DNA of 64,000 nt from an uncultured Gammaproteobacteria bacterium (GTDB taxonomy: Bacteria > Patescibacteriota > Microgenomatia > UBA10105 > UBA927), in assembly GCA_964445435.1 (NCBI GenBank), contig CAYUKU010000006.1, forward strand, positions 1,112 through 65,111. Reading direction: 5' to 3'. A program made the translations under genes and the position numbers. Below are positions 48,078 to 64,000 of this stretch, one piece after another. The notes beneath the pieces were generated by a model that worked only from the letters and a program-made list of their open reading frames with translations, had not been told where the DNA came from and ran no database searches. The stretch's first letter is position 1. Each line of letters opens with the position of its first letter.

Positions 48078-49129
48078 ACGATGAGCGTATGCAGTCGTTT
48101 GCAAAACCCGTCATATCTGAAATCGGCCGCTCTCGACCGTGCCGCTTTTGAGATATGCGTCCACATTTTGGTATTCGCGGCGAGTTTCCCGGTGATGTCC
48201 ATGAGTTCTTTTTTCGTGTTCCACAAAAATCCGCTCACCCAATTTCCTACCACTTCCTTTTGCCCTCCCGCGGCATACACTACAGGTACTGCTCCTCCCG
48301 CCATTGCCTCTATTGTAGTAAGTCCGAAATGCTCCGCTTTCTCAGGGTGATTTGAAACATCTTCTCCGAAGCCCGCGGCGTGCCAATATATTTTCGCCCG
48401 ACCGTAAAGGGAGACTAAATCATTGAAAGGAATATTGGGAAGGATATCTATCCGATAGCCGTGAGCCAGTTTTTTGAGTTTATCGACAAACGGCTGGTCT
48501 TCGGGAAGCATACCCCCTGCCAACACAAGACGCCAGTCGGGAAGCTGCCTTTCATTTAGTTTCTTAAACGTCTCGATGAGAACTTCCTGTTTTTTCGTAT
48601 TCATACCCGTGGTAAAGCGGCCAACGGAAAGAATAAGTGATTCCTTCTTTTTCGGTCCGAATGCGTCGATATCTATAGCAGGAGCAAGTACGGATGCGCG
48701 GATACCGAATTTTTTGTCAATGTGATCTTTTACAAACTGTGAGTAGCAGAGAAAATGAGTTACCCTTCTTACTTTGAGCTGGGTCAACAGACTCTTCTCG
48801 TTCACCCACCCTGTCGGAAACTGAAAAATAAGGATTACTTTTTTCGAAAAAACGAACGGAATGCTTCCGTCACTTACGAAAAAAATTGCATCGTATCGCC
48901 TCGTAATGTTTGCCTTCTCAAACAGATTTCCGCTCTTCCAAATATTTCGTACGAGTCGTACGCCGGACAACGGCATGTGAAAACGCTCTTTGGCGGCGCC
49001 CAGAATTCCCGGATCGTCCCAGAAAATGTCAACCTCGTGTTCGGGCGTCAGACAAGAGGCGATGTCAAAACAATACCGCTCTCCCCCACCAAGCGTATTG
49101 AGATAAGGATTATAAATGCCTATCTTCAT
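48074..49129 (-). CDS. GT4-family (GT-B) glycosyltransferase.
   Basis: I moved the start to MKIGIYNPYLNTLGGGERY. ...LILSVGRFT...LVLAGG...GFGEDV...EHFGLTTIEAMAGGAVPVV. Confidence 0.7.
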   Translation of the reverse strand: MKIGIYNPYLNTLGGGERYCFDIASCLTPEHEVDIFWDDPGILGAAKERFHMPLSGVRLVRNIWKSGNLFEKANITRRYDAIFFVSDGSIPFVFSKKVILIFQFPTGWVNEKSLLTQLKVRRVTHFLCYSQFVKDHIDKKFGIRASVLAPAIDIDAFGPKKKESLILSVGRFTTGMNTKKQEVLIETFKKLNERQLPDWRLVLAGGMLPEDQPFVDKLKKLAHGYRIDILPNIPFNDLVSLYGRAKIYWHAAGFGEDVSNHPEKAEHFGLTTIEAMAGGAVPVVYAAGGQKEVVGNWVSGFLWNTKKELMDITGKLAANTKMWTHISKAARSRAADFRYDGFCKRLHTLIV

Positions 49130-51422: not shown

Positions 51423-52179
51423 GCGACGTGACCTGAAGTTCCCACAATTTAGCGTACGTAATAAATAAACTAAACCCCTGATAAACACTCTCTATGATTC
51501 CGACCGTGCCCGCCTTCCACCCTCCTCCCGAGAAATACATTCGGAAAAACCCGGTAAGAAACACCCGTATAAGCCGCCATCCGACAATCTGGGGATGGTG
51601 CGCCTCATAGCGTAGTACTGCTTCGGTCTTTGACCATTCGTTTGTTTTGGAAACCATTTCCTCAAGTGTCCGATGCGTCTGGTGGAGAATCGGATCAACA
51701 ATCGTTTCCACTCTCCCTTCCACGACCGCAGTTTCATGGAGTTTCCCCCTCCAACCTTTCAGAGCATCCTTTCGAAAAAGCCTGTGCATTTTATCGGTGT
51801 GCGGCCAAAGGTGTCCGAGGTAATAGTTTTTGCGGGTGATATAGTATCCGTTGGGTGATGAGGACCCGTACTCCTTCATAATTTTTTGTATCGTCCGTGC
51901 AAGCGAAGGTGTTATTCGCTCATCTGCGTCCACATAGAGTATCCAGTCCCCGTGGGCGCTCGTAAGACCCACGTTACGAATTTCAGAGAAGTCATCTGAA
52001 GAAGTAGTCACAACGCTGACGTTCATCGAGCGGGCAATGTCTCGTGTCCTATCGGTTGAATTGTTGTCAACGAGGATAATTTCCGAAACCCAGTCCAGGC
52101 TTTTTATGCATTCGCCGATCCGCAACTCTTCATTTTTAGCGATAATGATAGCAGAGATAGTATTTTTCATCGCTTCCAT
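51403..52179 (-). CDS. GT2-family glycosyltransferase (WaaE/KdtX-like).
   Basis: ISAIIIAKNEELRIGECI...EIILVDNNSTDRT...YVDADE. The C-terminus is GTVGIIESVYQGFSLFITYAKLWE. Confidence 0.7.
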   Translation of the reverse strand: MEAMKNTISAIIIAKNEELRIGECIKSLDWVSEIILVDNNSTDRTRDIARSMNVSVVTTSSDDFSEIRNVGLTSAHGDWILYVDADERITPSLARTIQKIMKEYGSSSPNGYYITRKNYYLGHLWPHTDKMHRLFRKDALKGWRGKLHETAVVEGRVETIVDPILHQTHRTLEEMVSKTNEWSKTEAVLRYEAHHPQIVGWRLIRVFLTGFFRMYFSGGGWKAGTVGIIESVYQGFSLFITYAKLWELQVTSHEKNTR

Positions 52180-53081
52180 GTATATCTGTTTCCAAATCTT
52201 CCTGTAATGAAATCAAAAACTGCCCTGCGCAAAACGGGCGAGGATGAAAAAACGAAACGGACCGCCTCTCTCAGAAGCGCAATTTTCGTACGAAGTGGCG
52301 CATATCTCATGCCGATAAGCAGCCTGTTCCTCGTAAGATAGTATTGATGGAGTCCATGACCCGGCTTCCCGGTCGACCCTGCGTTTATATGCCAAACGAT
52401 TGAGGAAGGGGCGTAAACGCAGCGAAATCCGGCTTTTTTCGCCCGCAGGGAGTAATCCAGATCTTCAAGGTAGAGGAAAAATCGATCATCCAGATAGCCG
52501 ATGCGGGAGACAACGTCTTTTCTGATCATAAGCGAGCAACCGGTGATGAAATCCGTATCCTCCTGTCTTTCAAATTGGCCCGTATCCACCTCGTCCACTC
52601 CTCTATGTGACGCATACATATTTGCCCAATCAACGAGTCCGCCCGCATACCAGATAACCCGCCCGCGATCTTTCTTACTGTAGCGGTCATGATGAAACTC
52701 ATATCCGGGTGCAAAATAAATCTTCGATCCTGCCAGACCTACTGCACTATCATCAAACGCATCCAGAAGCCCTTTCAAGGCATCCTTGTCGACCTTCGTA
52801 TCGTTATTCAGGAGCCACACGAAATCAGCGCCTTTTGAAACTGCGTACCGCATTCCCCTATTATTTCCGCCGGTGAATCCCTCGTTTACAGGGCTTTCCA
52901 ATACAGTCACGGAAGGAAAATTTTTGCGTATCGATGCGACCGAATCGTCGGTGGAAGCATTATCAACGACAACCGTAGCTACGTTGTTCCTCGCGTTGTC
53001 CATGTCGGCAAGCGAAGAAAGACAGTTTAGGGTATCCGCCTTCCCGTTCCAGTTTACAACGATTATGAATACATTTTTCAT
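52167..53081 (-). CDS. GT2-family glycosyltransferase (WcaA/rhamnosyltransferase-like).
   Basis: I moved the start to MKNVFIIVVNWNGKADTL (ATG at 53081, a TAATG overlap). ...VVVDNASTDDSV...LLNNDTKV...ITGCSLMIRKD. Confidence 0.75.
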   Translation of the reverse strand: MKNVFIIVVNWNGKADTLNCLSSLADMDNARNNVATVVVDNASTDDSVASIRKNFPSVTVLESPVNEGFTGGNNRGMRYAVSKGADFVWLLNNDTKVDKDALKGLLDAFDDSAVGLAGSKIYFAPGYEFHHDRYSKKDRGRVIWYAGGLVDWANMYASHRGVDEVDTGQFERQEDTDFITGCSLMIRKDVVSRIGYLDDRFFLYLEDLDYSLRAKKAGFRCVYAPSSIVWHINAGSTGKPGHGLHQYYLTRNRLLIGMRYAPLRTKIALLREAVRFVFSSSPVLRRAVFDFITGRFGNRYTWKR

Positions 53082-53980
53082 TACAGAAGCTTCTTTTGGA
53101 CTTTCAGAAAGAATGAGCGTACCGGTGAAGCCGACTCCCGTATCCTTGCAGTCAGAAGCCAAAATCGAACCTCTCTCGCGTTTCGTTTTAACTCATCATT
53201 TGCAGCTTCAAGAGTGATACTTCGCTGTGCGAACGCATTCTTCTCCCACAATTTTGCAAAAACGACGAAGGAATAAAACGCCTGGAGCAGAGCAAGAACC
53301 AATCCATGGAGGCCGTCTTTGTATCCGCTTTGAGCGAAATAAATTTTTACGAAATCCGAGACCGGAAATCTGATCGCGTCATACCAGGCCAGCTGATAAT
53401 TCGTGGCCTGAAGATTTGCCACTTCATTCTCCGTATAGAGCTTGTCCATTTTTCGAATAAACTGACCCACTGTTTCATAATTATGGTGAACGAACGGTTC
53501 AGTAAGCGTATCGGTCGGACCGTGCACTTCTATGTATTCGTGCACGTGCTTCTCCTGGAATCTGCCCTTGTCCTTTCTGAACAGTCTTAGGTGCCTATCC
53601 GGCCACCAGAGGCCATGTTCTATCCATTTGCCGAAAATGATGTTTTTGCGGGCAATCCAGTATCCGACGATATCTGAGTCCGGTTTCTGCGTCACTTTTT
53701 TGATTTCTGAGGCTAACGCCTGCGGAATCTCTTCGTCAGCATCAAGGTTGAGTATCCAATCGCCTGTCGCCTGAGTGAATCCGAAATTCTTATTTACGTT
53801 AAGCATCGGATTATTGGGTCGGACGAAAACCTTTGCGCCGAACTTCTTCGCCACGGCAGCAGTCTTATCAACGGAGCTATTATCCACTACGATTATCTCT
53901 GACGCCCAACGAACCGACGCCAGGCACGCTGCGAGCTTATCTTCCTCATTATAGGCCGAAATAACAACGCTTACTGACAT
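53081..53980 (-). CDS. GT2-family glycosyltransferase (WaaE/KdtX-like).
   Basis: MSVSVVISAYNEEDKLAACL...EIIVVDNSSVDKT...NLDADEEI. The C-terminus is GLHGLVLALLQAFYSFVVFAKLWE. Confidence 0.7.
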   Translation of the reverse strand: MSVSVVISAYNEEDKLAACLASVRWASEIIVVDNSSVDKTAAVAKKFGAKVFVRPNNPMLNVNKNFGFTQATGDWILNLDADEEIPQALASEIKKVTQKPDSDIVGYWIARKNIIFGKWIEHGLWWPDRHLRLFRKDKGRFQEKHVHEYIEVHGPTDTLTEPFVHHNYETVGQFIRKMDKLYTENEVANLQATNYQLAWYDAIRFPVSDFVKIYFAQSGYKDGLHGLVLALLQAFYSFVVFAKLWEKNAFAQRSITLEAANDELKRNAREVRFWLLTARIRESASPVRSFFLKVQKKLL

Positions 53981-53983
53981 AAG

Positions 53984-55462
53984 CTAGACGTGAAAACGTG
54001 AAATAATTGAGACAACTTCAGGTTTGGCCCTCCACCAAACACAGCCTGCGTACAGTATAACACTTGCCGCTGCAACTGCCGCCAAACTCACGGGACTCGC
54101 TGGAACCACCGAAAGCGCCCCTGCAGTGAACAAGCTCTGCGCTACTGCTGCCGCAAGAGGAACGCCGATACTCCGGGTAAACGAAAACGGCGCCGCTCTC
54201 TTCACCAGATGAACAACGACGCCGACGGTAAGACTCACGGCGAAAATAGCTGCCGCGTATCCGTGAAATCCGAATACCGAAATAAGAAGGACAGTCAAAA
54301 TCCACGTGGCTGTCGTCCACATGACCATCAGGGCAAGTGTTACTTTAATTCTCCCTACTGCGTTAAGCGCATTTGTAAGAGGAGTTGAAAGAGAAGACAC
54401 GAGTGTGGCAAGGGCGAATAAGTAAAACGATGGCAGGGCCGGCATCCATTTACCATATTTGGGAATGTAGGAAATAAGAGGCTCAATGAAAAAAATAAGT
54501 CCGACAGTTACCGGGAATACGGCCAACGATATCCCGAAAAGTGTCTTTTCGATTGCTTTTGTAAGATGCTCTTTTGAGGTCTGAAGGCGGGAAAAGGCAG
54601 GGAAGGTAACGCGGATAATGCTATCCATGATAAGCCGCAGCGGCACGTCTGCCCATTTTTTCGCCCACCCTATGTACCCGATCTCGGAAAACGGCAGCAT
54701 TTTCCCAAGAAAAACCGTCATAAGATCATCTTTCAAAAGCGCCAGGAACGAGTTCAGTTGGAACGGAACGCCGAATTTAAGAAGCTTCGCTGCAACGGGT
54801 CTTTGTATTCCAATGGCAATTCTCCACGGTGATACGACATACATCGCAACCAACCCCAAAAGAGCACGGATAACGACGGCCCAGGTGAAACTTTCGATGC
54901 CTCTTCCCTGCCAAGCCAACCAAACCGCAACAACGTAAAAACCTACCGTCTCCAGAATCTGAGGAATGATAAGCTTCTGAAACTCGAGCGACCGCTCAAG
55001 CAAGACGGATGGAATTGTTTTGAGTGATGAAATGAAAAAAGACGCGATAAGACTGCGCAGGAGCCACAATCCGGACGAATCCAGTTTATAAAACTGGGCA
55101 ATCTGAGAGGAAAAAAGGAAAGAAACGACCGTAAGAGCTCCCACAAGGATCTGTTGGATCGTGAAGGTAGTCGCAAGATCGCTTTTTGTAACCTCATCCT
55201 TTTTTTGAATGAGCGCAGCCGCAAGACCAATGTCTGAGAAATAATTAAGAAACGCTATAACTGCCGACACGACGTAGAAAATTCCGAAGACTTGGGGCGT
55301 GAGAAAAACGGTAAGAAGAAAGGTCGCTCCAAAAGCAATAATTTGCAAAAGAAACGTCCGAGAAGTAAGCGCAAGAATTCCTGCAAATGATTTCTTCTTT
55401 ATGTGTTCTATTTCGGTCAAGTGCGCTGCGTCTGCCATGGTTTGGTGACGAATAACCTCCAC
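53984..55462 (-). CDS. Wzx-like flippase (polysaccharide biosynthesis / MOP superfamily).
   Basis: 492 aa with 12-14 TM helices. ...KKKSFAGILALTSRTFLLQIIAFGATFLLTVFLTPQVFG... The start may be M9 (MADAAHL, at 55438). Confidence 0.6.
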   Translation of the reverse strand: MEVIRHQTMADAAHLTEIEHIKKKSFAGILALTSRTFLLQIIAFGATFLLTVFLTPQVFGIFYVVSAVIAFLNYFSDIGLAAALIQKKDEVTKSDLATTFTIQQILVGALTVVSFLFSSQIAQFYKLDSSGLWLLRSLIASFFISSLKTIPSVLLERSLEFQKLIIPQILETVGFYVVAVWLAWQGRGIESFTWAVVIRALLGLVAMYVVSPWRIAIGIQRPVAAKLLKFGVPFQLNSFLALLKDDLMTVFLGKMLPFSEIGYIGWAKKWADVPLRLIMDSIIRVTFPAFSRLQTSKEHLTKAIEKTLFGISLAVFPVTVGLIFFIEPLISYIPKYGKWMPALPSFYLFALATLVSSLSTPLTNALNAVGRIKVTLALMVMWTTATWILTVLLISVFGFHGYAAAIFAVSLTVGVVVHLVKRAAPFSFTRSIGVPLAAAVAQSLFTAGALSVVPASPVSLAAVAAASVILYAGCVWWRAKPEVVSIISRFHV

Positions 55463-56148
55463 AATCCTTCCAGATCTCCCTGTGCGGTTTTCAAAACCCG
55501 TACCGTCGATCCCGGGTTATCTATCCAGGTTACCGGCTCCTCGTAGATGGCGCATCCGCTTTTCTCGGCCATTACAAGAAGCTCGGTATCGAAAAACCAC
55601 TCATTATCGATAACCCTCGGAATAATTTCATCGACGACCCGCTTCGAAACTGCCTTAAATCCGCACTGAGCGTCGCTAAAATGCACCCAAAAGAATACTT
55701 TGATAAGGAAGATATACACCTTCGACGTTACGGTTCGAAGCAAGCTTCTGCCTTTCACATTGGCGCCCCGGGCATTTCTGCTGCCTATGGCTACATCAAA
55801 ACCCTTAAGAATCGACCTGGACAAGGCGGGGAAGTGTTTGAGGTCGGTCGAAAGGTCAACATCCATATAGGCATTTACGTCTGACTTATACTTTCGCCAG
55901 ACGGACTTCACTGCTCTCCCGCGGCCCTTTTCATCCAAATGTTCGACTTTCACCCGGGGATATTTTTTTGTAAGGGATTTGGCTATGGCATGCGTGTTAT
56001 CTGTCGATGCATTATCGGCAATTACAACCATCCAGTCGAAATCCGCACAATTGCCCGCGAGGTAGGCCACAAGCTTCCCCACGCTATCGGCTAGTTCCTT
56101 CTCTTCGTTGTAAACCGGGATGACGACGTTAAGTGTTGGTTTTTTCAT
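55417..56148 (-). CDS. GT2 polyprenyl-phosphate glycosyltransferase (Dpm1-like, soluble).
   Basis: MKKPTLNVVIPVYNEEKEL...VVIADNASTDNT...GKGRAV...DVDLSTD...GSRN...QCGFKA. Confidence 0.75.
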   Translation of the reverse strand: MKKPTLNVVIPVYNEEKELADSVGKLVAYLAGNCADFDWMVVIADNASTDNTHAIAKSLTKKYPRVKVEHLDEKGRGRAVKSVWRKYKSDVNAYMDVDLSTDLKHFPALSRSILKGFDVAIGSRNARGANVKGRSLLRTVTSKVYIFLIKVFFWVHFSDAQCGFKAVSKRVVDEIIPRVIDNEWFFDTELLVMAEKSGCAIYEEPVTWIDNPGSTVRVLKTAQGDLEGLWRLFVTKPWQTQRT

Positions 56149-57796
56149 ATTTTCTGCCCAAAAGAAAGAAAAGCCCCAAAACGGCTATAACGCTTATTAT
56201 ATTACCTAGCGTACGCACAGGGGTATCGGCAAAACGAATTTCAACGACATTCTGTCCCTTGGGAATCAAGATAGTCGGAAGAGATTGAGCGACTGTCGGC
56301 ACCACCGGTTTTCCGTTTACAAGATACTTCCACCCTGGAAAGACGGTTTTGTTGAGGGTTATCTTTTCGTCTTTATTCGTTGTGACGGTAAATCGTTCAT
56401 ATGTATCGCTTTGAACTATGTGCTCGACTATCATCCCTTCCCTGGGAACAATGGTCGTACGCGCATACGCGTCCGGGCTTGCCGGACGAACGAAATCGGG
56501 AGGTAAATATTCATATGAGATATTCGATACATCAAAGCGCAGCGCTTTTTCCGATTCGAATTCACGGGCTTCCTTTGTAAACAGATACTGCGGCTGAAAC
56601 CATTTGCCGTAATATGGAATCGCAAGAAGGACCACGATGGTGGTCAATATAAACCGCAACGCCTTCGCGCGCATATGAACGAAAAGCGTACCGATGAGCA
56701 CGCTTAGCCCGAGCTCAGCGTATGCCAGGAATCTCCAAGGATACTGAAGGTAAGAAAAAAACGGAATGTTTTCCCATAAAAATATGCTTATCGGAAGCGT
56801 AAAAAATATCCCAACTCCGGTGATAACCATTCCTGTCAGACCGAGATACCGTTCGGGAAAGAATCGTCCTTTGAGAAGAACCAATGCTCCTGCTGCAAGT
56901 CCAATAATGATATGGAGCTTACCCAGCATAAACGACATACCGTCTACACATCCTGCCGTAGAGCCCCCGAATCCCCAGGGTGAACTCCATAGTTGTGGTG
57001 CGCACACCAAATGATCATGAAAGTCAGAGGAGCTCGATATTTGTCCTGCCACATTTGTGTATTTCATCTCAACAAGAGCAGGAAGCCAAAAAAATGCAGA
57101 AAGCCCAAGTCCCAACACCAATATCAATATATAGTTTTTCAAGGGAGAAAGGGACTGCGCGCTCATCCGACGCACGAAAAACGTGATTACCGCTGCCATT
57201 GCCAGGAGGAAGCTTGTGGCGTACCCCAACAATGTATGGGAGAGAATAACCCCAGCAAGGCCGATTCCTCCGATAAGAAAACCGAGCTTATGCGGGTTTT
57301 TCTTATGTATGTCAACCAGAGACCACAAGAGTAACGGAAAAAAAACAAGTGTCCAGAGTTCGCCTACCGCTCCCCGTACGTACAGCTGCACGGCATGATA
57401 CGGTGCATAGGCATAAAAAATTCCTGCTATCAGCCCTCCAAGCACACCTATAAAAGGAACCAAGGCCACATAGAGTATACCCCCTGCAAGAATCATGCCC
57501 AAAATCATCATCACTTTGGTCGCTGACAGGCCAGAAGTGCCAAGGGCATAGAGAAACCCGCCCACATAATACGGGAGCGGGCCATAAAAATTATAGAGGG
57601 GATATCCGTACCCGTATCCCAGATCAGTTACCCAACGGACCGGAAACTGTCCACCCCGAAGAGCTTTACCCATGGAAACAACTCTGCCAATTTGCGTGTC
57701 ATCGTGCATTGGGAAATATCCGTCGCCCAAAAGCGGTGACACAGTCCCCAGTGAAACCATGAGAACCAGCAGAAATCCGATTATTTTACCTGTCAT
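56129..57796 (-). CDS. PTPS-related-family polytopic membrane protein (putative GT-C) with a YfhO-type C-terminal domain.
   Basis: FPMHDDTQIGRVVSMGKALRGGQFPVRWVTDLGYGYGYPLYNFYGPLPYY...; C-terminus TVFPGWKYLVNGKPVVP...GQNVVEIRF, then a TM helix. It is in tandem with 57793..59328. Confidence 0.55.
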   Translation of the reverse strand: MTGKIIGFLLVLMVSLGTVSPLLGDGYFPMHDDTQIGRVVSMGKALRGGQFPVRWVTDLGYGYGYPLYNFYGPLPYYVGGFLYALGTSGLSATKVMMILGMILAGGILYVALVPFIGVLGGLIAGIFYAYAPYHAVQLYVRGAVGELWTLVFFPLLLWSLVDIHKKNPHKLGFLIGGIGLAGVILSHTLLGYATSFLLAMAAVITFFVRRMSAQSLSPLKNYILILVLGLGLSAFFWLPALVEMKYTNVAGQISSSSDFHDHLVCAPQLWSSPWGFGGSTAGCVDGMSFMLGKLHIIIGLAAGALVLLKGRFFPERYLGLTGMVITGVGIFFTLPISIFLWENIPFFSYLQYPWRFLAYAELGLSVLIGTLFVHMRAKALRFILTTIVVLLAIPYYGKWFQPQYLFTKEAREFESEKALRFDVSNISYEYLPPDFVRPASPDAYARTTIVPREGMIVEHIVQSDTYERFTVTTNKDEKITLNKTVFPGWKYLVNGKPVVPTVAQSLPTILIPKGQNVVEIRFADTPVRTLGNIISVIAVLGLFFLLGRKYEKTNT

Positions 57797-59328
57797 AGGG
57801 CTTTGAGTTTCTTTTTCCCTGTTTTCCTGATGAGCTGAAAAAGAAAAAGTAACAAGAAAAACAGGCTCACACTGTCTGCGATAAACCGAAATACCGTCTC
57901 ACGAAAACCCGCCACGATTCTATGTTCGCCTTTCGGCACTTCTATGCGCATCACCCCAAGGGGGTTTGCGTGATCAACAGGTGTCAGTTTTCCGTCGAGC
58001 GTTACTCCCCAGCCGGGATAATATGCCGTATTGATTTGCACGACACTGTCTTCTGACGCCGTCACTGTGACGTCGATATATTGCGTCGTTACTCTATTCT
58101 CTGTAATGGTTCCACCTCCCGAATGGAATTCAAGTTTTTCATTCGCCCGCGCCGTCGGCTTCTGGGTCACCCATATTGGAAGGTATTCGTCGTGGACGGT
58201 TGTTGTTGCTTCATTCGTCGTATAGTACCCTTCCGGAAATGACTCATAGGCGATAAATCTGCTTGCCATAGCAAACTGTAGCGCACATGCGATCATCAGT
58301 ACGCCACCAAAAACGTATTGTCGCTTCGCATTGGCATGAACGGCACACGCAACAAGGAAGCTCCCGGCAAACACGCTCATACTCAAAAACCGAAACGGAA
58401 ACTGAAAAAGCGTCGCAAGAACATCGAAGCGCCATATAAACGCGCTCACGGGCAGCGCCATGCACGTTGCGCCAACAAAAATCCAGAAAAAGAGAGATCG
58501 AATCGAGTGTCTCTGTTGGGAAAAGACGCTCACGATGGCTGCAAAAAGACCCGGAATTCCGACAAGCCACCAAAGACTGCGCTCAAACAAATACTGCCTG
58601 GGATCAGAAACTACGATACGATCAAACACAACGAACCTTCGCTCATAAAGCGCCGGCAACCAAAAAAACGCAGCCATCCCCATAGCGAACGTAAGGGGCC
58701 ACAAGTACCGCGAGAATTTCCGAAGCGCAATAATATAGAGCATATTCGTGCCGATAAATAGAACGGCAAGCGAATTATGGCTCAGAATTAACATAAATGC
58801 GGAAATCATAAAAAGCCATTTCTTATCGCGGGCGATCGAATAGAATGAAAGCGCCGCCCAAAGAAACGCAAATATCTCTCCCACCGAGCCGCGCTTATAT
58901 ATATCAAAAAGCAAATACGGCGCGGCAAGGAAGCTTATTGCGCCCATCGTGGCAGCAAATGAATGAAAATAGGTCTGAAGCCACAGTCTTACGACTACCC
59001 CGGCCCCCACTACGGAAAGAATAATAATCAGCTTTACGGAATCGACGAACGAAAAACCCAGGAATTTGAAAATCGATCCGACGTACATAAACCCCGGGTA
59101 AAGGAAGTTCGCCACCGGATACCCGTAGCTGTAATTGAGTCTCCCCAAAAATCGGACCGGGAACTGCCCCTCACGCAGACTCTGGTAAAACGCACTCAAC
59201 CGAACGATCATCCAGCTTCCGTCGTCCGTCAGGATAAATCCCGGCCGAAAAAGCGGGAAAAGCACAATAAGACCGACTAGAATGACAACGCCAAACGGCC
59301 ATAATTTTTGGAAGAGGGGCGACTTCAT
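57793..59328 (-). CDS. PTPS-related-family polytopic membrane protein (putative GT-C) with a YfhO-type C-terminal domain.
   Basis: FILTDDGSWMIVRLSAFYQSLREGQFPVRFLGRLNYSYGYPVANFLYPGF...; C-terminus AYYPGWGVTLDGKLTPVD...GEHRIVAGF, then a TM helix. It has an ATGA overlap with 56129..57796. Confidence 0.55.
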   Translation of the reverse strand: MKSPLFQKLWPFGVVILVGLIVLFPLFRPGFILTDDGSWMIVRLSAFYQSLREGQFPVRFLGRLNYSYGYPVANFLYPGFMYVGSIFKFLGFSFVDSVKLIIILSVVGAGVVVRLWLQTYFHSFAATMGAISFLAAPYLLFDIYKRGSVGEIFAFLWAALSFYSIARDKKWLFMISAFMLILSHNSLAVLFIGTNMLYIIALRKFSRYLWPLTFAMGMAAFFWLPALYERRFVVFDRIVVSDPRQYLFERSLWWLVGIPGLFAAIVSVFSQQRHSIRSLFFWIFVGATCMALPVSAFIWRFDVLATLFQFPFRFLSMSVFAGSFLVACAVHANAKRQYVFGGVLMIACALQFAMASRFIAYESFPEGYYTTNEATTTVHDEYLPIWVTQKPTARANEKLEFHSGGGTITENRVTTQYIDVTVTASEDSVVQINTAYYPGWGVTLDGKLTPVDHANPLGVMRIEVPKGEHRIVAGFRETVFRFIADSVSLFFLLLFLFQLIRKTGKKKLKAL

Positions 59329-60821
59329 AGAGGCGTAATTTTATACATCCGCATCCACACATCCTCCCTGTTTCCTTTCTGGTAACTTGAAACCAATTCC
59401 ATTGGCCAGTCGGGAATCGTCTGCGTCTGATTGAAAACGATATATGTTGTATGATCTTTTGCGTCTTTGAGCATTTCTTGGGTAGGTGCGTCATAGGGCA
59501 CCGGCCACACTCCCTTCACTTTTACGTTCGGGTTGTCCACCTGGTACATTTCTATCGCGTACGGGAACAGTCCGAAGGTGCCCTCCGTATAGATACTCAC
59601 TTTTCCTTTTTGTGCTTCTTTTGTCACGATTTCGTTAATCTCTTTGACTCCCCAACCGCTCGGCCAATCGTCGATGAGTTGGCTCTTATCCGAAAACGGT
59701 ATCGGGGCATATTTCGGATTTGTCAGAATGAAATAATCAGTCCACAGGGAGGGGAAAACGATAAGGCCGAACAAAAAAATCGTCAGGGCGTTCTTTCTTC
59801 GTATGAGATCCGTCAGCGTTCGGGCCGCAAGGATAAGAAGAGGCATAACCATAAAGAGAATAAAACGAGGATAGAGAACTCTGCCAAACATCGAAAGCGC
59901 AAAAAACGGTGCAAACCACCAAACGAAAAGGAGCAGAGACTCCCGCCACTTCCCCCCGAAACGGAATAGTCCGATAATCGACGCGACAAACACGGGCCAC
60001 GTCAGATAATGAATTGCCCAGTCAAACAAACCTCTCAAGTTACCCGATACGAACTTGAACGGATGGACGACCCACTCGTGAAATGAATAGATAAATACCA
60101 TATCTTTCTGAGCGACCATGTGGAAAAGCGGTGAGAGCCGAAGCGTGGCATACATTGCCTGCGAGATAAACGCAGCCACGAGCACGAACCCGGTCCACCG
60201 AAAAAAATTCCTATTTCTCTTCGGGTTTTTCCAGTCAAAAAGAAGAAGCGTCGCAGGCAACATGTAGAGACTTAAGAAGCCCGAGGATTTATTGAGCATT
60301 CCTGCTCCCAGTACCATCCCCAAAATAAGGGCGATATCAAGCCGCAGGTTTCGTACAAGAAGAACGGAAAGGAATGCACTCCAGATGAAGAACGTAGCCA
60401 CAAGCGAATCATAGACGGCAAGACGATCATACATGAGCGTAAAGGGTACGATAAGATAAAGAACACATGTGAGAAAGCTTATTTTTTTCCTCTGGAACAG
60501 TTCGAAACTCAAAAACCACAAGCCAACCATGCTCACGGCTCCGGCTATAACGGAAACGAGTCGGCCGGCAACCAGAGGATCACGGATAAATTTCAAAAAG
60601 ACCATCATAACCCACGTAAACATGGGTTGTTTTCCGTCTACCAGAGAAATAAACCGCCACGCCGCATCCCGCGAGCCTATTTGCGACCAACGGATATAGA
60701 TAGCCTCATCTGTGAATATGGGTAAAATCGTCAAATGGAACAGCCTCGTGGCGAAAAAAGCCGCGGTCAATAAGAGCAAGGCAAACACGAACGTACGCAC
60801 GCTGGCAAGCTTACGAGCCAT
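59325..60821 (-). CDS. ArnT/PMT_2-like GT-C membrane glycosyltransferase (classic DEA.Y motif).
   Basis: I moved the start to MARKLASVRTFVFALLLL. ...ILPIFTDEAIYIRWSQ... (an ArnT-type DExxY motif), with about 12 TM helices and a C-terminal soluble domain. Confidence 0.6.
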   Translation of the reverse strand: MARKLASVRTFVFALLLLTAAFFATRLFHLTILPIFTDEAIYIRWSQIGSRDAAWRFISLVDGKQPMFTWVMMVFLKFIRDPLVAGRLVSVIAGAVSMVGLWFLSFELFQRKKISFLTCVLYLIVPFTLMYDRLAVYDSLVATFFIWSAFLSVLLVRNLRLDIALILGMVLGAGMLNKSSGFLSLYMLPATLLLFDWKNPKRNRNFFRWTGFVLVAAFISQAMYATLRLSPLFHMVAQKDMVFIYSFHEWVVHPFKFVSGNLRGLFDWAIHYLTWPVFVASIIGLFRFGGKWRESLLLFVWWFAPFFALSMFGRVLYPRFILFMVMPLLILAARTLTDLIRRKNALTIFLFGLIVFPSLWTDYFILTNPKYAPIPFSDKSQLIDDWPSGWGVKEINEIVTKEAQKGKVSIYTEGTFGLFPYAIEMYQVDNPNVKVKGVWPVPYDAPTQEMLKDAKDHTTYIVFNQTQTIPDWPMELVSSYQKGNREDVWMRMYKITPL

Positions 60822-60834
60822 AGGGAAATTATAC

Positions 60835-61935
60835 CTACTTTTTGGCCAGAAGAACAATTCCTGCCAGACCAAGAGGTACAATCATCCCCCAAAACTTGAT
60901 AAGGGGAACAGGGTCATTCCAATGACCGAAATAGAAATACGGCGCATAGATAAGAAGAAGCCCGAGTGAAGCAGCGCCAGTGACGAGGGTAATCCGCCGG
61001 TTTCGAGGTAAAAGTCCGACAAAAGGCACGATCCATACCAAATACCAGGGAAGAATCTCACGCTGAGTGATAACGGCAAGAAGACCCATGCACATGGCAA
61101 TGAGAAACCACAGTGGTCTGTACCCGAACAGCACAACCGGGAGCGCGAATAATGTCATTAATTTCGTACCTGTCGCCAGAGCCATCAGGGCAAACGATTG
61201 GAGCGTCTGGCCCGAAACAGAAGCCCAAATGGACCATACCGCAAACAGCATCATGACGATATCGTTATGTCCGCTCACCAGCGTCTCAAAAATGATAAGC
61301 GGGTTTAATGCCACAATAGCCATGCCCACGTTTATCTGTTTCGGGTCAGTTTTCGCCAAAATTTTTTGCGTCAGCCAAACAACCCCAAGATATGAAAAAA
61401 CCGCAATTCCCTTCATGCTCCATAATGTGGGAAGAAAATATCCCAACCCCAGCAAGTAAAACGGAAGACTGAGAATAATCCAAAACGGCGTGTACGCGCT
61501 TGGCAAATGAGTCCAACGCATAAAAGAAAGCCACGGCTCTACGCCGCGAAAGTCAAGCGGGACGACCGTATACGGATTCTTGTGGTACACGAGCACTGTT
61601 TTGGCCGTGAACATGTAGTTAAAAATGTCGTAAGAAAACGCCGGATAGGAAAAAAGGAGGAGGACTGATAGGATGATTGCGATGCGCCAAACGGTTTCTT
61701 GCGCAAGTCTACCTTTCCGTGCCTGAGAAATGGCAAACGCATACAAACTGAAATAAACGATAAGTAGTCCAACATACCATGCCGTGGCCCACGGTCGAGC
61801 ATAGAACCCTACATACTGAAACAGTTTCTCGATGGATTGGAGGATTCCGACCTGTGAAATCGTTAAACTAAGATCAACCTGAGTAAACGAAAAGAGAAAC
61901 AATAAAACCGCAGCTGCACTATAGGCGAAAATCAT
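60835..61935 (-). CDS. DUF2029/GT87-like polytopic membrane protein (putative GT-C), a paralog of 26702..27871.
   Basis: SYPAFSYDIFNYMFTAKTVLVYHKNPYTVVP...LNPLIIFETLVSGHNDIVMM. Confidence 0.45.
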   Translation of the reverse strand: MIFAYSAAAVLLFLFSFTQVDLSLTISQVGILQSIEKLFQYVGFYARPWATAWYVGLLIVYFSLYAFAISQARKGRLAQETVWRIAIILSVLLLFSYPAFSYDIFNYMFTAKTVLVYHKNPYTVVPLDFRGVEPWLSFMRWTHLPSAYTPFWIILSLPFYLLGLGYFLPTLWSMKGIAVFSYLGVVWLTQKILAKTDPKQINVGMAIVALNPLIIFETLVSGHNDIVMMLFAVWSIWASVSGQTLQSFALMALATGTKLMTLFALPVVLFGYRPLWFLIAMCMGLLAVITQREILPWYLVWIVPFVGLLPRNRRITLVTGAASLGLLLIYAPYFYFGHWNDPVPLIKFWGMIVPLGLAGIVLLAKK

Positions 61936-62696
61936 GAATAATATCCTTTAAACGCGTTGACCCGGATCCTTACGATATCCAAGAATCCCTGCCACGAATC
62001 TTTTATGGGATTCACCCTTCTTGTTTCCACATAGTGCCATTCGACCGGCACCTCTTTTATCTTATATCCGCGATTCTTCGCCAGAAATATCACTTCTATG
62101 TCAAATCCTGCCGTTACCATGGATCCGCTTACTTCCTTTTTCGTGCCGTAGAGCTTAAGACTTTTGAAAATATTCTCGGCTGCGTTTTTACGAAATGCCT
62201 TAAATCCGCACTGGGTGTCTACGATACCCTTCAGTCCCAAGAGCGTACTTCGCAAAAACATAAATCCCCGCGCCATCATGATGCGAAAGACCGGCGCGCC
62301 TTCCCGGACGCCGTTTCTTGACCCGATGACCACGTCATATCCCTTGGAGAACCACGGCAGAAGCTTCTCTACCTCCCGGATCGGCGTTGCTTGATCCAGA
62401 TCGGTAAACAACACAATGTCTCCCCGTGAAGCCGCGACTCCCGTGGCGACGGTTCCCGCTTTCCCCAAATGGATATTGTGAATCACTCGAAATCCCCGAT
62501 TGTTTTTCACGAATTCGTCCAGGAGTATTTTTGTCTTGTCTGATGATCCGTCGTTTACGATAATCGCTTCCCAGGTATATGACTGTCGCTCCAAGTAGAG
62601 CGAAACCTTGTCGAGGGCTCCAAGCCGAATATTCGTCTCTTCGTTATACGCGGGGATGATAACCGACAAAAAAGGCATACGTATCTTACTCTTCAT
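61932..62696 (-). CDS. GT2 polyprenyl-phosphate glycosyltransferase (Dpm1-like, soluble).
   Basis: MPFLSVIIPAYNEETNI...EAIIVNDGSSDKT...GKAGTV..G...DIVLFTDLDQATP...GSRN...QCGFKAF. Confidence 0.75.
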   Translation of the reverse strand: MKSKIRMPFLSVIIPAYNEETNIRLGALDKVSLYLERQSYTWEAIIVNDGSSDKTKILLDEFVKNNRGFRVIHNIHLGKAGTVATGVAASRGDIVLFTDLDQATPIREVEKLLPWFSKGYDVVIGSRNGVREGAPVFRIMMARGFMFLRSTLLGLKGIVDTQCGFKAFRKNAAENIFKSLKLYGTKKEVSGSMVTAGFDIEVIFLAKNRGYKIKEVPVEWHYVETRRVNPIKDSWQGFLDIVRIRVNAFKGYYS

Positions 62697-64000
62697 ACGG
62701 GACGAGTTTATAGATTTTCACGAAGGGCGCGTCCCACGTTCCTGCGATTTGCGCCCTGCCGAATCCAGCCACCTCCCACAGTGGATGGCCAAGCGGCTGA
62801 CAATTTATTGTCTCACAAATTACGATAAGTTGCTTCGTAACGCTTTTGCGGGCGGGATCAATATCGGTATTTTCAATGACAACCGGCGCATTTCCCCATA
62901 TCTCAAAAAAGTACCGATACGCGTGATCGGAATTTCCGTCTGTGAGAAGTGCGAAGTTAAATGGCTCTCCGTTCGTCTGCTCAAACGCCGTACGGGCGAT
63001 TGTCTTTACCTGTTCCAACTGGTTATTTGGAGGGTAGACGAAAGGACGACCCTGCCAATTAAAGATAATAAGCCCGGCCCATAGCAGAATCACGGGCAGG
63101 CGTGCGTTTTTGTTACTCCACACCCATTGGGCCATCATCCCGAGAAACAGGAAGGGGAATGCAAACAGAATGGTGAAATAGTAATCGTAGATGGCTCGCT
63201 GGTAAAACCCAAAAAGCCCAATGACGATGCCCACCCACACACAAAGAAGCAGTATTTCTTTTTTTCGCGTCCGGGCAATGATCACAAATCCGAGAAAGAA
63301 CGCCAATACCCATCGGGCAGTCTGCGACAAGACCGTCAAGGCTGTGATGTACCAGTCAGGATAACTATTCCACAATTCTTTGGGCGGCATCCGGAAAACC
63401 ACTCTGCTAAAAATCCGAAACGACACGTCAGCGATCGTTTTCCCGTAAGAAGACGGTGTAAATCCCGTTTCTTTACCCGCGGAAAGAAACTGTACGATGG
63501 TACGTGTATTTGCAAACTGGTGTCGCAACTCAAACGCGATAAACGGACTTGCCCCGATAAGAAATCCTACTGCAGTCAAAAGCATCGTCTTTACAAACGG
63601 AAGTGTATGTCGGTGAAGGAGATACCATACAAACACAACCACGAATAAAAAGAGGAAAAGATAGTGAAGCTGTATACCGATTCCCAACACGATACCGATA
63701 AGAAGCTCGTTGGCGCGAATTCTCCTTGTGACCAACCGCCACAGAAGGTAGATAAGCATTATCGCGAAAAACGGCACGACGTTCGGATTCCACGATGACC
63801 GGGAATACGCGATAACGAGCGGGGAAAAGGCATACAGACTCGCTGCCACAAGACCCGCTACCGTACCAAATAAGGATCGTCCGGTTACGTACACCATAAA
63901 CACGGTAGCAATACCGAACAAGCCGACCATGACCGCAGGTCCCACGGGATCGAGTTTCCACGCCCACAGAAACGGCAGCATGAAATAATAGTAAATAGGC
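62686..64000 (-). CDS. ArnT/PMT_2-like GT-C membrane glycosyltransferase, partial. The N-terminus lies beyond the window end.
   Basis: The frame stays open upstream of the track's M at 63981 (...PIYYYFMLPFLW). ...SLFGTVAGLVAASLYAFSPLVIAYSRSSWNPNVVPFFAIMLIYLLWRL... matches the PMT_2 core. The acidic loop-1 motif is presumably in the missing N-terminus. Confidence 0.5.
   Translation of the reverse strand, partial: PIYYYFMLPFLWAWKLDPVGPAVMVGLFGIATVFMVYVTGRSLFGTVAGLVAASLYAFSPLVIAYSRSSWNPNVVPFFAIMLIYLLWRLVTRRIRANELLIGIVLGIGIQLHYLFLFLFVVVFVWYLLHRHTLPFVKTMLLTAVGFLIGASPFIAFELRHQFANTRTIVQFLSAGKETGFTPSSYGKTIADVSFRIFSRVVFRMPPKELWNSYPDWYITALTVLSQTARWVLAFFLGFVIIARTRKKEILLLCVWVGIVIGLFGFYQRAIYDYYFTILFAFPFLFLGMMAQWVWSNKNARLPVILLWAGLIIFNWQGRPFVYPPNNQLEQVKTIARTAFEQTNGEPFNFALLTDGNSDHAYRYFFEIWGNAPVVIENTDIDPARKSVTKQLIVICETINCQPLGHPLWEVAGFGRAQIAGTWDAPFVKIYKLVPYEE

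What the first reader, a model, noticed from the sequence alone, without database searches (positions are those of the whole stretch)
56129..59328. Five 'PTPS-related' membrane proteins, including a head-to-tail tandem pair.
Five paralogs share the same N-terminal signature: an acidic/His loop (HDGEYH, HDAPDH, SDGGVH, HDDTQ or TDDGSW) followed by (F/V)P.RW...LN.GYG.P. Their length (511-555 aa) and architecture are also shared. The pair 57793..59328 and 56129..57796 lies in tandem with an ATGA overlap.

The family name is historical, and there is no sign of pterin chemistry. The acidic first loop is what GT-C enzymes use to bind the lipid-phosphate-sugar donor, so these are candidate glycosyltransferases of unknown specificity. 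The family is poorly characterised, so a five-copy expansion in one locus is a good handle on its function.
Basis: partly seen in the sequence, partly recalled or inferred. Interest (0 to 1): 0.55.

Follow-up and report, generated by a model that had tools for sequence, protein, structure and literature searches.

The report
Conserved tandem GT-C glycosyltransferase pair
Two overlapping genes, plus three relatives nearby, encode membrane sugar-transferases of a little-studied family, and the pair is an ancient, tightly coupled unit in a large cell-surface glycan gene cluster conserved across a whole group of ultra-small (CPR) bacteria.

Summary
There are five full-length paralogs of 511-555 aa at 27-32 % identity. 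They share an Asp-containing first loop, and the pair at 57793-59328 / 56129-57796 overlaps by ATGA.

The GT-C reading is supported. AlphaFold models of both tandem genes are confident (pLDDT 91-92). Their top 18 and top 29 Foldseek PDB hits are all GT-C enzymes, and no transporter appears above noise.

The 'PTPS_related' label is weak. Only 3 of 5 reach Pfam's threshold, by 0.1-4 bits, and they match only the N-terminal half of the model. The C-terminal beta-sandwich plus final TM helix resembles YfhO.

New findings here:
- The five copies are five ancient orthologous groups, not a recent expansion. A and B are the most divergent pair.
- B->A adjacency holds in 79/79 Microgenomates loci, and 57 keep the 4-nt overlap.
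- A Dpm1-like GT2 and a Wzx flippase usually follow directly downstream.
- A ~14-gene operon, and a larger cluster around it, are conserved across the group.
- Rare natural B-type/A-type fusions exist.

Most likely role: two sequential or paired extracytoplasmic polyprenyl-phosphate-sugar transferases in a conserved envelope-glycan assembly line. Donor sugar and acceptor are unknown.

The parts
57793..59328 (-). B: 511-aa GT-C-fold membrane glycosyltransferase, the upstream partner of the tandem pair. No Pfam hit.
   Evidence: ORF. AF2 pLDDT 92.4, pTM 0.91. The top 29 Foldseek PDB hits are all GT-C. D36, R43, R59, G69, Y70 and P71 are conserved in >=76/77 orthologs.
56129..57796 (-). A: 555-aa GT-C-fold membrane glycosyltransferase, the downstream partner. 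Marginal PF10131 hit.
   Evidence: PF10131 at 26.5 bits against GA 26.4. AF2 pLDDT 91.2, pTM 0.92. The top 18 Foldseek PDB hits are all GT-C. H31 and D32 are conserved in 77/77 orthologs and D33 in 72/77.
57793..57796 (-). ATGA stop/start overlap between B and A, indicating translational coupling.
   Evidence: Sequence read. The same 4-nt NTGA overlap occurs in 57 of 79 related loci, and B is directly upstream of A in 79/79.
55417..56148 (-). 243-aa GT2 of the Dpm1/GtrB/ArnC type, a putative polyprenyl-phosphate-sugar synthase. Its start overlaps the end of A by 20 nt.
   Evidence: Glycos_transf_2 at 3.8e-23. The best PDB match is Pyrococcus DPMS 5mlz at 4.8e-16, followed by ArnC. The best NCBIfam matches (sub-threshold) are PgfS, dolichyl-P hexose transferase, AglJ and PpgS. 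Overlap read. It lies directly downstream of A in ~70 loci.
53984..55462 (-). Wzx/MOP-type flippase, 492 aa.
   Evidence: Polysacc_synt_3 at 1e-52. MOP flippase at 1.4e-30 and O-glycosylation flippase at 3e-26. Position is conserved.
59325..60881 (-). PMT_2-type GT-C (518 aa) directly upstream of B.
   Evidence: PMT_2 at 1.5e-13. Position is conserved.
60835..61935 (-). GT87/MptA_B-like GT-C, 366 aa.
   Evidence: GT87 at 1e-6 and crt_membr at 6.7e-7. Orthologs are annotated PF26314 MptA_B_family.
61932..62696 (-). Second Dpm1-like GT2 (254 aa) in the same operon.
   Evidence: Glycos_transf_2 at 2.3e-26. PgfS at 1.8e-20 and dolichyl-P hexose transferase at 1e-15. It is the best-conserved gene of the block, at 61-88 % identity.
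25141..26739 (-). Paralog C, 532 aa.
   Evidence: BLASTP against A, B, D and E gives E 2e-45 to 2e-65. Orthologs lie at a conserved position in L084 and L085.
29133..30770 (-). Paralog D, 545 aa.
   Evidence: PF10131 at 30.7 bits. It has its own ortholog group at 52-71 % identity. Position is conserved.
39275..40894 (+). Paralog E (539 aa), followed by a YfhO gene.
   Evidence: PF10131 at 29.0 bits. A 51 % ortholog lies next to YfhO in L084.
44917..63981 (-). Gap-free, same-strand block of 15 genes that contains the pair, probably one operon. Order: PMT_2, GT2, GT87, PMT_2, B, A, GT2, Wzx, GT2 x3, YfhO, GT4, YfhO, GT2.
   Evidence: ORF coordinates overlap or abut. Promoter- and terminator-like sites are not enriched over shuffles. 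Fourteen of the genes are in conserved order across the Gottesmanbacteria-level loci among L001-L083, with variants in the more distant Levy-, Shapiro- and Roizmanbacteria loci.

Best explanation
A and B are two distinct, catalytically competent GT-C-fold glycosyltransferases of the PTPS_related/YfhO branch.

Architecture (predicted): each has an N-in TM1 and an extracytoplasmic first loop carrying an invariant Asp (D32 in A, D36 in B). A core of about 11 TM helices follows, with invariant Arg and His residues (R38, R54, R141, H187 and R355 in A). The protein ends with a small extracytoplasmic beta-sandwich and a C-terminal TM anchor.

Inferred mechanism: on the outer face of the membrane each enzyme takes a polyprenyl-phosphate-monosaccharide donor and transfers the sugar to a growing surface glycan. 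The translationally coupled Dpm1-like GT2 just downstream (55417-56148) and its sibling at 61932-62696 would make the donors on the cytoplasmic face. The cytoplasmic GT2 and GT4 enzymes would start the glycan on a lipid carrier. The adjacent Wzx would export it.

The two enzymes catalyse two different, probably consecutive, steps. They are made in fixed 1:1 proportion and may act as a physical pair. C, D and E do analogous steps elsewhere in the same conserved assembly line, alongside PMT_2, GT87 and YfhO enzymes.

Shown here: paralogy, fold, conserved catalytic-loop residues, gene order, coupling and fusions. Inferred: donor type, outside-facing catalysis, a glycan rather than a protein acceptor, and consecutive action.
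For: - Fold: confident AF2 models have exclusively GT-C top hits.
- Family: A, D and E hit PF10131, a member of the GT-C clan (PMC7801869). hhalign to the window's three YfhO proteins gives 97.5 %, E 5.7e-12. The C-terminal domain is shared with YfhO (BLASTP 5e-7).
- Active site: the first-loop Asp and flanking Arg residues are invariant in the five paralogs. They are also conserved in 76-77 of 77 orthologs of both A and B, so both partners are under selection as enzymes.
- Donor supply: the small GT2 neighbours best match polyprenyl- or dolichyl-phosphate sugar synthases, namely DPMS 5mlz at 4.8e-16, ArnC, PgfS, AglJ and PpgS. The downstream GT2 overlaps A by 20 nt and follows A in ~70 loci.
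- System logic: GT-A polyprenyl-P-sugar synthase + flippase + GT-C is the established multi-component transmembrane glycosylation scheme, and YfhO and PMT_2 enzymes are its GT-C components (PMC8035078; PMC11127046).
- Pairing: B is directly upstream of A in 79/79 loci, and 57/79 keep the 4-nt overlap. A natural in-frame fusion of a B-type and an A-type module sits in the same operon slot (P0244). A second, independent double-module fusion was seen in two assemblies (P0245).
- Distinct roles: A and B are the most divergent of the five (130 bits). Each has lineage-specific conserved extracytoplasmic motifs.
Against: - No member of this family has been characterised biochemically or structurally. 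The profile search found no PDB sequence relative at E<=10, and the literature search found only database mentions.
- TM-scores to solved GT-C enzymes are modest (0.38-0.48), so fold-class assignment is secure but no specific mechanism can be transferred.
- No initiating phosphoglycosyltransferase, Wzy polymerase or ligase was detected in the 64-kb window. The nature of the acceptor (lipid-linked glycan, wall polymer, protein or lipid) is therefore open.
- No GtrA-type flippase for the monosaccharide donor lies in the window. A GT2-GtrA fusion is seen only just outside the block in related loci.
- In four distant loci the Dpm1-like GT2 downstream of A is missing.
- Double-module fusions are rare: two clusters of 1 and 3 members.
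Confidence: 0.7

Rival explanations
1. A and B are protein O-glycosyltransferases. They would transfer sugar from polyprenyl-phosphate donors to Ser/Thr-rich regions of secreted or surface proteins (S-layer, pilins, adhesins). The comparison is with eukaryotic and actinobacterial PMT and the streptococcal YfhO-family PgfM1/PgfM2.
For: The window's YfhO proteins give their only NCBIfam matches to PgfM1/PgfM2, weak and confined to the C-terminus. The small GT2s match PgfS best or near-best. The flippase matches an 'O-glycosylation flippase' model at 3e-26. PMT_2-type enzymes flank the pair. YfhO-family enzymes are reported to glycosylate Ser/Thr-rich regions in streptococci (PMC12041528, listed).
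Against: All those NCBIfam matches are far below the curated cut-offs. The operon also carries three more GT2s, a GT4 and a Wzx, which suits assembly of an oligo- or polysaccharide on a lipid carrier. No candidate acceptor protein is encoded in the 64-kb window.
Confidence: 0.2
2. A and B modify a lipid, such as a scavenged membrane lipid or a glycolipid anchor. The comparison is with ArnT on lipid A and PimE on phosphatidylinositol mannosides.
For: ArnT is among the top structural matches for both models (5f15 and 5ezm). ArnC-type synthases are among the best matches of the neighbouring GT2.
Against: ArnT is no closer than oligosaccharyl- or arabinosyl-transferases in the fold search. The conserved beta-sandwich domain resembles the C-terminal domain of YfhO and beta-sandwich modules attached to glycoside hydrolases (GH30 hits at low TM-score). 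That fits glycan recognition better than lipid recognition.
Confidence: 0.1
3. One partner, or both, is not a glycosyltransferase. It could be a non-catalytic scaffold, a glycan polymerase or ligase, or a transporter that merely shares a polytopic architecture.
For: B and C have no Pfam hit. Activity is untested. Some GT-C-fold proteins are non-catalytic, for example PIG-U, which appears among B's lower hits.
Against: The catalytic-loop Asp and the conserved Arg and His residues are retained in both lineages across 77 orthologs. Transporters appear only at Foldseek probability <0.2. Full-length homology links B and C to the PF10131-positive paralogs.
Confidence: 0.05

Closest known systems
YfhO family (PF09586): B. 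subtilis and S. aureus YfhO (LTA GlcNAc transferase), L. monocytogenes YfhO (WTA), streptococcal PgfM1/PgfM2
   Same: Both are GT-C-fold polytopic enzymes. The TM cores are homologous (hhalign 97.5 %). They share the C-terminal beta-sandwich plus final TM helix (faint YfhO C-terminal hit). Both are genetically paired with a CsbB/Dpm1-type GT2 and a flippase (PMC8035078).
   Different: The window proteins are ~250-300 aa shorter and lack most of YfhO's large extracytoplasmic region. None reaches the YfhO gathering score. Their first-loop motif, (H/T/S)D(D/G)...R...P.R(W/F)...L.(Y/G)YG.P, differs from the PWR...KN..D..RQ.YPW motif of the window's YfhO proteins. They occur as five paralogs alongside three true YfhO genes.
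Pfam PF10131 PTPS_related (GT-C clan CL0111, function unknown)
   Same: The N-terminal ~320 residues (TM2 to ~TM10) of A, D and E match the first half of the model just above threshold. Many orthologs carry a precomputed PF10131 hit. Some NCBI records name them '6-pyruvoyl-tetrahydropterin synthase-related protein'.
   Different: B and C do not hit. The second half of the 621-position model is not matched. Typical PF10131 proteins outside CPR (Chloroflexi/Anaerolineae) are 750-1100 aa.
Mycobacterial extracytoplasmic GT-C assembly line (EmbA/B/C, AftA-D, MptA/B, PimE) for arabinogalactan and LM/LAM
   Same: Both use many different GT-C enzymes with polyprenyl-phosphate sugars to build a conserved envelope glycan outside the membrane. 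AftA, AftD and EmbB are among the best fold matches. MptA_B/GT87-like genes lie in the same operon. EmbA-EmbB is a heterodimer of adjacent paralogs (PDB 7bvc/7bvf titles).
   Different: There is no sequence-level relationship beyond the fold. The donors, product and organism are entirely different. Here the genes are concentrated in one conserved cluster in a ~1-Mb genome.
Three- or multi-component transmembrane glycosylation systems (GtrA/GtrB/Gtr*, CsbB/GtcA/YfhO, GT136 system)
   Same: Both combine a Dpm1/GtrB-like GT2, a flippase and a GT-C enzyme encoded together (PMC8035078; PMC11127046).
   Different: Those systems add single side-chain sugars and are usually strain-variable. Here two GT-C genes are coupled in tandem inside a ~14-gene operon, with ~24 GT-C-like genes in 64 kb, and the order is conserved across a class-level clade.
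Pmt1-Pmt2 heterodimeric protein O-mannosyltransferase
   Same: It is a pair of paralogous GT-C enzymes working as a complex. PMT-type chains appear among the lower fold hits (6p25_B, 9e61).
   Different: Physical interaction of A and B is not shown here. No MIR domain is present, and the families differ.

Membership tests
Pfam PF10131 PTPS_related | Whole-protein score at or above the curated gathering score (26.4 bits) | tested here: inconclusive
   A scores 26.5, D 30.7 and E 29.0 bits and pass by 0.1-4.3 bits. B and C have no hit at E<=0.1. B and C are full-length homologs of the three that pass, so they belong to the same superfamily branch but lie outside the model's reach.
Pfam PF10131 PTPS_related | Match along the whole 621-position model | tested here: not met
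   Only profile positions ~1-324 are matched in A, D and E. The C-terminal part instead resembles the YfhO C-terminus.
Pfam PF09586 YfhO | Score at or above the gathering score (28.5 bits) | tested here: not met
   The only hit is a faint 11.7-bit match of C to profile positions 786-825. Profile-profile homology to the window's YfhO trio is nonetheless strong (97.5 %, E 5.7e-12).
GT-C fold glycosyltransferase superfamily (Pfam clan CL0111) | Polytopic membrane protein whose fold matches solved GT-C enzymes | tested here: met
   For A, the top 18 PDB hits are all GT-C, at E 4e-5 to 5e-3 and TM 0.38-0.46. For B, the top 29 are all GT-C, at E 1.6e-5 to 2e-2. The models have pLDDT 91-92.
GT-C fold glycosyltransferase superfamily (Pfam clan CL0111) | Conserved acidic residue(s) in the first extracytoplasmic loop after TM1 | tested here: met
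   D32 (A) and D36 (B) are invariant in the five paralogs and present in 77/77 and 76/77 orthologs. They lie 9-13 residues after TM1 in the models.
GT-C fold glycosyltransferase superfamily (Pfam clan CL0111) | Transfers sugar from a lipid-phosphate-linked donor | not testable with these tools
   Needs biochemistry. The only support is contextual, namely the adjacent Dpm1-like GT2.
Multi-component transmembrane glycosylation system (GT-A synthase + flippase + GT-C) | Co-encoded polyprenyl-phosphate-sugar synthase of the Dpm1/GtrB/CsbB type | tested here: met
   The GT2 at 55417-56148 overlaps A by 20 nt. Its best structural-sequence relative is DPMS 5mlz at 4.8e-16, followed by ArnC. It is conserved downstream of A in ~70 of 79 loci. 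All NCBIfam equivalog scores are below cut-off, so the sugar is unknown.
Multi-component transmembrane glycosylation system (GT-A synthase + flippase + GT-C) | Co-encoded flippase | tested here: inconclusive
   A Wzx/MOP flippase lies two genes downstream and is conserved. That type usually flips oligosaccharide-PP-lipids. No GtrA-type gene lies in the window. A GT2-GtrA_DPMS_TM fusion lies just upstream of the block in L001 and L002.
6-pyruvoyl-tetrahydropterin synthase (the enzyme the family is named after) | PTPS catalytic domain | tested here: not met
   No PTPS or other soluble-enzyme domain appears in any Pfam or NCBIfam scan of the five. The proteins are polytopic membrane proteins.

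The most novel reading that the evidence does not exclude
A and B form an obligate two-active-site GT-C heterocomplex, analogous to EmbA-EmbB or Pmt1-Pmt2. This complex would be a core module of a class-wide conserved, extracytoplasmic assembly line of ~20 GT-C enzymes that builds a Microgenomates-specific envelope heteropolysaccharide. That would be a lipoarabinomannan-like solution in ~1-Mb episymbiont-type genomes, with each of the five paralog groups fixing one linkage.
Probability: 0.25. Interest if true: 0.7.

Novelty: new member of a known kind. Interest (0 to 1): 0.45.

Why it matters
CPR/Patescibacteria have tiny genomes and almost no characterised surface chemistry, yet their lifestyle is thought to depend on cell-surface contact. 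This window devotes essentially all of its 64 kb to glycan synthesis. That is about 6 % of a genome, judging by the ~1.0-1.1-Mb chromosomes of relatives. It includes ~24 GT-C-type enzymes.

The operon containing the pair keeps its gene order across Gottesman-, Levy-, Shapiro- and Roizmanbacteria at only 37-60 % protein identity. Such conservation is unlike strain-variable O-antigen or capsule loci. It points to a core envelope polymer.

The PTPS_related/YfhO-like family has ~14,600 representatives at 50 % clustering (E<=1e-10), with no solved structure and no assigned activity. A conserved pair with its donor synthase next door, and naturally fused versions, offers a compact three-gene unit (B, A, GT2) for heterologous reconstitution.

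For the finding as written the gain is modest. It confirms a database-implied fold assignment and corrects 'expansion' to 'five ancient orthologous groups'.

Tried and rejected
2. A profile search of PDB sequences with the family alignment gave no hit at E<=10. No solved sequence relative exists.
3. An exact-sequence contig look-up of A (P0001) found nothing. Cluster look-up gave no names.
5. Folding the natural fusion P0244 with single-domain rows was abandoned. MAFFT stacked every single-domain sequence on one half, and only two true double-module fusion clusters exist.
6. Literature searches returned nothing relevant for PTPS_related, for Patescibacteria + GT-C, for CPR + YfhO and for Gottesmanbacteria + glycosyltransferase. 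My recollection that Haloferax AglS might be a PF10131 member could not be checked from the listed papers and is not used.
7. Recent tandem duplication was rejected as the origin of the pair. A and B are the most divergent pair of the five, and both have separate ortholog groups.
8. The antisense ORFs inside the region (56993-57334, 58318-58761 and 58963-59280, all +) were treated as spurious. They lie wholly within conserved coding sequence on the other strand, are low-complexity and K/R-rich, and were not pursued.
9. tRNA, Rfam and promoter/terminator scans found nothing above background.

Full report
**1. Observation**

A is 56129..57796(-), 555 aa. B is 57793..59328(-), 511 aa. The minus-strand sequence at the junction reads ...AAA GCC CTA TGA overlapping ATG ACA GGT, which is a genuine ATGA stop/start overlap.

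All-against-all BLASTP of the window's ORFs recovers five mutually full-length paralogs:
- A and B, as above
- C, 25141..26739(-), 532 aa
- D, 29133..30770(-), 545 aa
- E, 39275..40894(+), 539 aa

Pairwise identity is 27-32 %, with E from 3e-36 to 2e-80. The alignment confirms each quoted loop motif. It gives an invariant Asp (D32 in A numbering), R38, R54, L59, Y63-G64 and P66. Further invariant positions are R141-G142, S186-H187, W237/P239/A240/E243, Q351/P353/R355 and P487-G488-W489. Hydropathy analysis and the models agree on a shared plan: TM1, a 50-60-residue loop, about ten more TM helices, a 120-145-residue soluble domain and a final TM helix.

**2. Family identity**

Pfam gives PF10131 (PTPS_related) for A, D and E only, at 26.5, 30.7 and 29.0 bits against a gathering score of 26.4. 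The matches cover only profile positions ~1-324 of 621. B has no relevant hit. C has only a faint match to the last 40 positions of YfhO. NCBIfam has nothing for any of the five.

A profile of A, its orthologs and the paralogs aligns to the window's three bona fide YfhO proteins at 97.5 % probability, E 5.7e-12, over the TM core. BLASTP links the C-terminal domain of D and E to the YfhO C-terminus.

The proteins therefore sit between PF10131 and PF09586. They are best described as a short PTPS_related/YfhO-like branch of the GT-C clan. PF10131 is already listed among the members of Pfam clan CL0111 (GT-C) with 'function unknown' (PMC7801869). No pterin-synthase domain is present.

**3. Fold**

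With a 39-sequence alignment, A gave an AlphaFold2 model of pLDDT 91.2 and pTM 0.92. With a 28-sequence alignment, B gave pLDDT 92.4 and pTM 0.91.

- For A, the top 18 Foldseek PDB matches are all GT-C enzymes (E 4e-5 to 5e-3, TM 0.38-0.46): AftA 8if8, AglB 3waj, STT3A/B, PglB 5ogl, ArnT 5f15, AftD 6w98 and DPY19 7zlh.
- For B, the top 29 are all GT-C or GT-C-fold: STT3 8age, ALG12 9s6t, AftD, EmbB 7bvc_B, AglB, ArnT, PglB, AftA and PIG-U.
- MFS and SLC transporters appear only at probability <0.2.

**4. Organism and family size**

Homologs of A number >2000 at E<=1e-5 in the word-indexed search. Where named, they are Patescibacteria: Gottesmanbacteria and Woesebacteria. A scan of one genome per species confirmed 556 relatives. 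The best 80 are all Microgenomates. Gottesmanbacteria are at 41-61 % identity, and Levy-, Shapiro- and Roizmanbacteria at 37-41 %. Many records carry an 'uncultured Gammaproteobacteria' title that is evidently a placeholder.

An exhaustive HMMER search with the five-paralog profile found 23,052 cluster representatives at E<=1e-3 and 14,640 at E<=1e-10. The top 150 split cleanly into A-type (31), B-type (22), C-type (24), D-type (42) and E-type (31).

The 'five-copy expansion' is therefore five old orthologous groups. A and B are the most divergent pair of the five, at 130-133 bits against 159-254 for the others. The tandem arrangement is not a recent duplication.

**5. Context in the window**

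Nearly every ORF in the 64 kb is glycan-related:
- about 24 polytopic GT-C-like proteins: ten PMT_2-type, three GT87/MptA_B-like, three YfhO, the five paralogs, and three with no Pfam hit
- about 13 GT2 and 5 GT4 enzymes
- two Wzx/MOP flippases
- two DegT aminotransferases, a GNAT and three epimerase/dehydratases

No initiating phosphoglycosyltransferase, Wzy or ligase was detected. From 63981 down to 44917, fifteen minus-strand genes overlap or abut. Promoter- and terminator-like sites there are not enriched over shuffles. The window has no tRNA or Rfam hit.

The four small GT2s (55417, 61932, 21363 and 23394) are mutually related. They best match polyprenyl- or dolichyl-phosphate sugar synthases: Pyrococcus DPMS 5mlz at 4.8e-16, and ArnC. 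Among NCBIfam models they match PgfS, dolichyl-P hexose transferase, AglJ and PpgS, all below equivalog cut-offs. 'Dpm1-like' is supported at superfamily level, but the sugar is unknown. The start of GT2 55417-56148 lies 20 nt inside the end of A.

**6. Conservation of the arrangement**

Across 83 related loci, tblastn with the window's proteins shows a recurring block on one strand. Its order is PMT_2, GT2(61932), GT87, PMT_2(59325), B, A, GT2(55417), Wzx, GT2 x3, YfhO, GT4, YfhO. It is present in essentially all Gottesmanbacteria-level loci.

The more distant clades show variants (gene calls):
- an extra YfhO between PMT_2 and B
- the Dpm1-like GT2 missing in four loci

B lies directly upstream of A in 79 of 79 loci that include upstream sequence, and 57 keep the same 4-nt NTGA overlap. 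A Dpm1-like GT2 follows A in ~70 loci, usually overlapping it.

Orthologs of C, D and E lie at conserved positions in two further genomes. One is 8 kb beyond the A/B block on the same 1.07-Mb contig. The larger cluster is therefore conserved too, although that rests on only two genomes.

Both A- and B-lineages keep the first-loop Asp and flanking residues in 76-77 of 77 orthologs. Each also has its own conserved extracytoplasmic motif. In A it is HFVC..QLW.S.WGFGGS..GC.DG.SF, with a Cys pair present in 66/77 orthologs. In B it is YYTTNEATTTV..EY.P.W. Neither partner looks like a degenerate subunit.

**7. Natural fusions**

The exhaustive search surfaced double-length proteins.

P0244 (1116 aa, seen on 2 contigs) has an N-half closest to D (35 %, 263 bits) and B (36 %, 253 bits), with B's DG.WM.IRLSAF.QSLREG.FPVR signature. 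Its C-half is unambiguously A-type (39 %, 329 bits, against <=196 bits for the others). The halves are joined by only ...AFF-RKR-IFGW... between B's last TM helix and A's first. It occupies the B-A slot of the same operon type.

P0245 (1093 aa, 3 members) is a second, independent two-module fusion. It was found in two separate assemblies, with a third family member directly upstream.

Fusions of a family member to a PMT_2 module (~900-940 aa) are commoner, for example in Chisholmbacteria. These are classic gene-fusion hints of functional or physical coupling. They are rare, however, and I could not test an A-B interface.

**8. Mechanism**

The best-supported reading rests on the established logic of multi-component transmembrane glycosylation: a GT-A polyprenyl-P-sugar synthase, a flippase and a GT-C enzyme (PMC8035078; PMC11127046).
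- The Dpm1-like GT2s charge a polyprenyl phosphate with a monosaccharide on the cytoplasmic face.
- The donor is flipped to the outer face.
- A and B, with their first loop and beta-sandwich outside, each add a sugar to an acceptor. The invariant loop Asp and the conserved Arg and His residues would serve in catalysis and phosphate handling.

The further GT2 and GT4 enzymes and the Wzx suggest that the acceptor is an oligo- or polysaccharide built on a lipid carrier and exported. The conserved gene order across a class-level clade argues for a core envelope polymer rather than a variable antigen. In spirit this is closest to the mycobacterial GT-C assembly line.

Steps shown here are paralogy, fold, residue conservation, gene order, coupling and fusions. 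Steps inferred are the donor class, sidedness, acceptor class and consecutive or joint action.

Three rivals remain. Protein O-glycosylation is supported by the PgfS, PgfM and O-glycosylation-flippase resemblances, all sub-threshold. Lipid modification is suggested by the ArnT-like fold matches. A non-catalytic role is disfavoured by conservation of the active-site loop.

**9. Novelty and score**

The fold and clan assignment were already implied by Pfam, and the system type is known. The finding as written is a new member of a known kind.

What adds interest is the deep conservation of a translationally coupled heteropair with its donor synthase. So do the rare natural fusions, and the concentration of ~24 GT-C-type genes in one conserved cluster of a ~1-Mb genome. 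I found no paper describing any of this. Donor, acceptor and product remain unknown.

Interest is 0.45.

Noticed in passing
window 1-64000: Almost the whole window is glycan biosynthesis. It holds ~24 polytopic GT-C-like ORFs (PMT_2 x10, GT87-like x3, YfhO x3, the five paralogs and three unassigned), ~13 GT2, 5 GT4 and 2 Wzx. No initiating phosphoglycosyltransferase, Wzy or ligase was detected, and there is no tRNA or Rfam hit. Relatives have ~1.0-1.1-Mb chromosomes, so this is roughly 6 % of a genome.
   Followed up: partly
window 13291-16275 (-), 4070-5536 (-), 11383-13215 (-): Three large polytopic proteins (994, 488 and 610 aa) have no Pfam hit even at E<=5. The 994-aa one has a first loop 'LPGDTLILGHDSGYRLP' reminiscent of GT-C enzymes. 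11383-13215 is a paralog of the PMT_2-like 5520-7166.
   Followed up: partly
window 8178-9491, 9498-10484, 16244-16879, 16857-18029, 3096-4073: An amino-sugar module: two DegT/EryC1-type aminotransferases, a GNAT acetyltransferase and NDP-sugar epimerases/dehydratases. It suggests that an N-acetylated amino-deoxy sugar is one building block of the product.
   Followed up: no
window 56129-57796, residues 258-292 of A: An A-lineage-specific extracytoplasmic loop, HFVC..QLW.S.WGFGGS..GC.DG.SF. Its two cysteines (C265, C283) are conserved in 66/77 orthologs, which suggests a possible disulfide. The loop is absent from B-E and is the least confident part of the model (pLDDT 64-87).
   Followed up: partly
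P0244 (L086 8001-11351), P0245 (L087 8001-11282, L088 1531-4812): Natural in-frame fusions of two family modules. P0244 is B-type + A-type in the same operon slot. P0245 is seen in two independent assemblies with a third family member directly upstream.
   Followed up: yes
P0246 (3329 aa, 5 matched stretches), P0248 (1670 aa, 4 stretches), P0303 and P0394-P0406 (~900-940 aa): Much larger multi-module proteins contain this domain, and there are recurrent fusions of a family member to a PMT_2 module (Chisholmbacteria). GT-C/GT-C fusion appears to be a recurring theme in this clade. The giant ones could also be gene-calling artefacts.
   Followed up: no
L055, L062, L064, L065, L069, L071, L074, L075, L077, L081: In Levy-, Shapiro- and related loci an extra YfhO gene is inserted between the PMT_2 gene and the B-A pair. 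In L058, L061, L062 and L078 the Dpm1-like GT2 after A is missing, so Wzx follows A: directly in L058 and L061, and after a 1.4-2.2-kb stretch with no match in L062 and L078.
   Followed up: partly
L004-L083 record titles: About half of the species-representative MAGs carrying this Microgenomates operon are titled 'uncultured Gammaproteobacteria bacterium' (CAY*/CAZ* accessions). The title is evidently a placeholder or mis-assignment.
   Followed up: no
L001 2466-3578, L002 2332-3441: Just upstream of the conserved block, related genomes encode a GT2 fused to a GtrA_DPMS_TM domain (~370 aa). It is a candidate synthase-plus-flippase for the monosaccharide donor. The corresponding position lies beyond the end of this window.
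   Followed up: no
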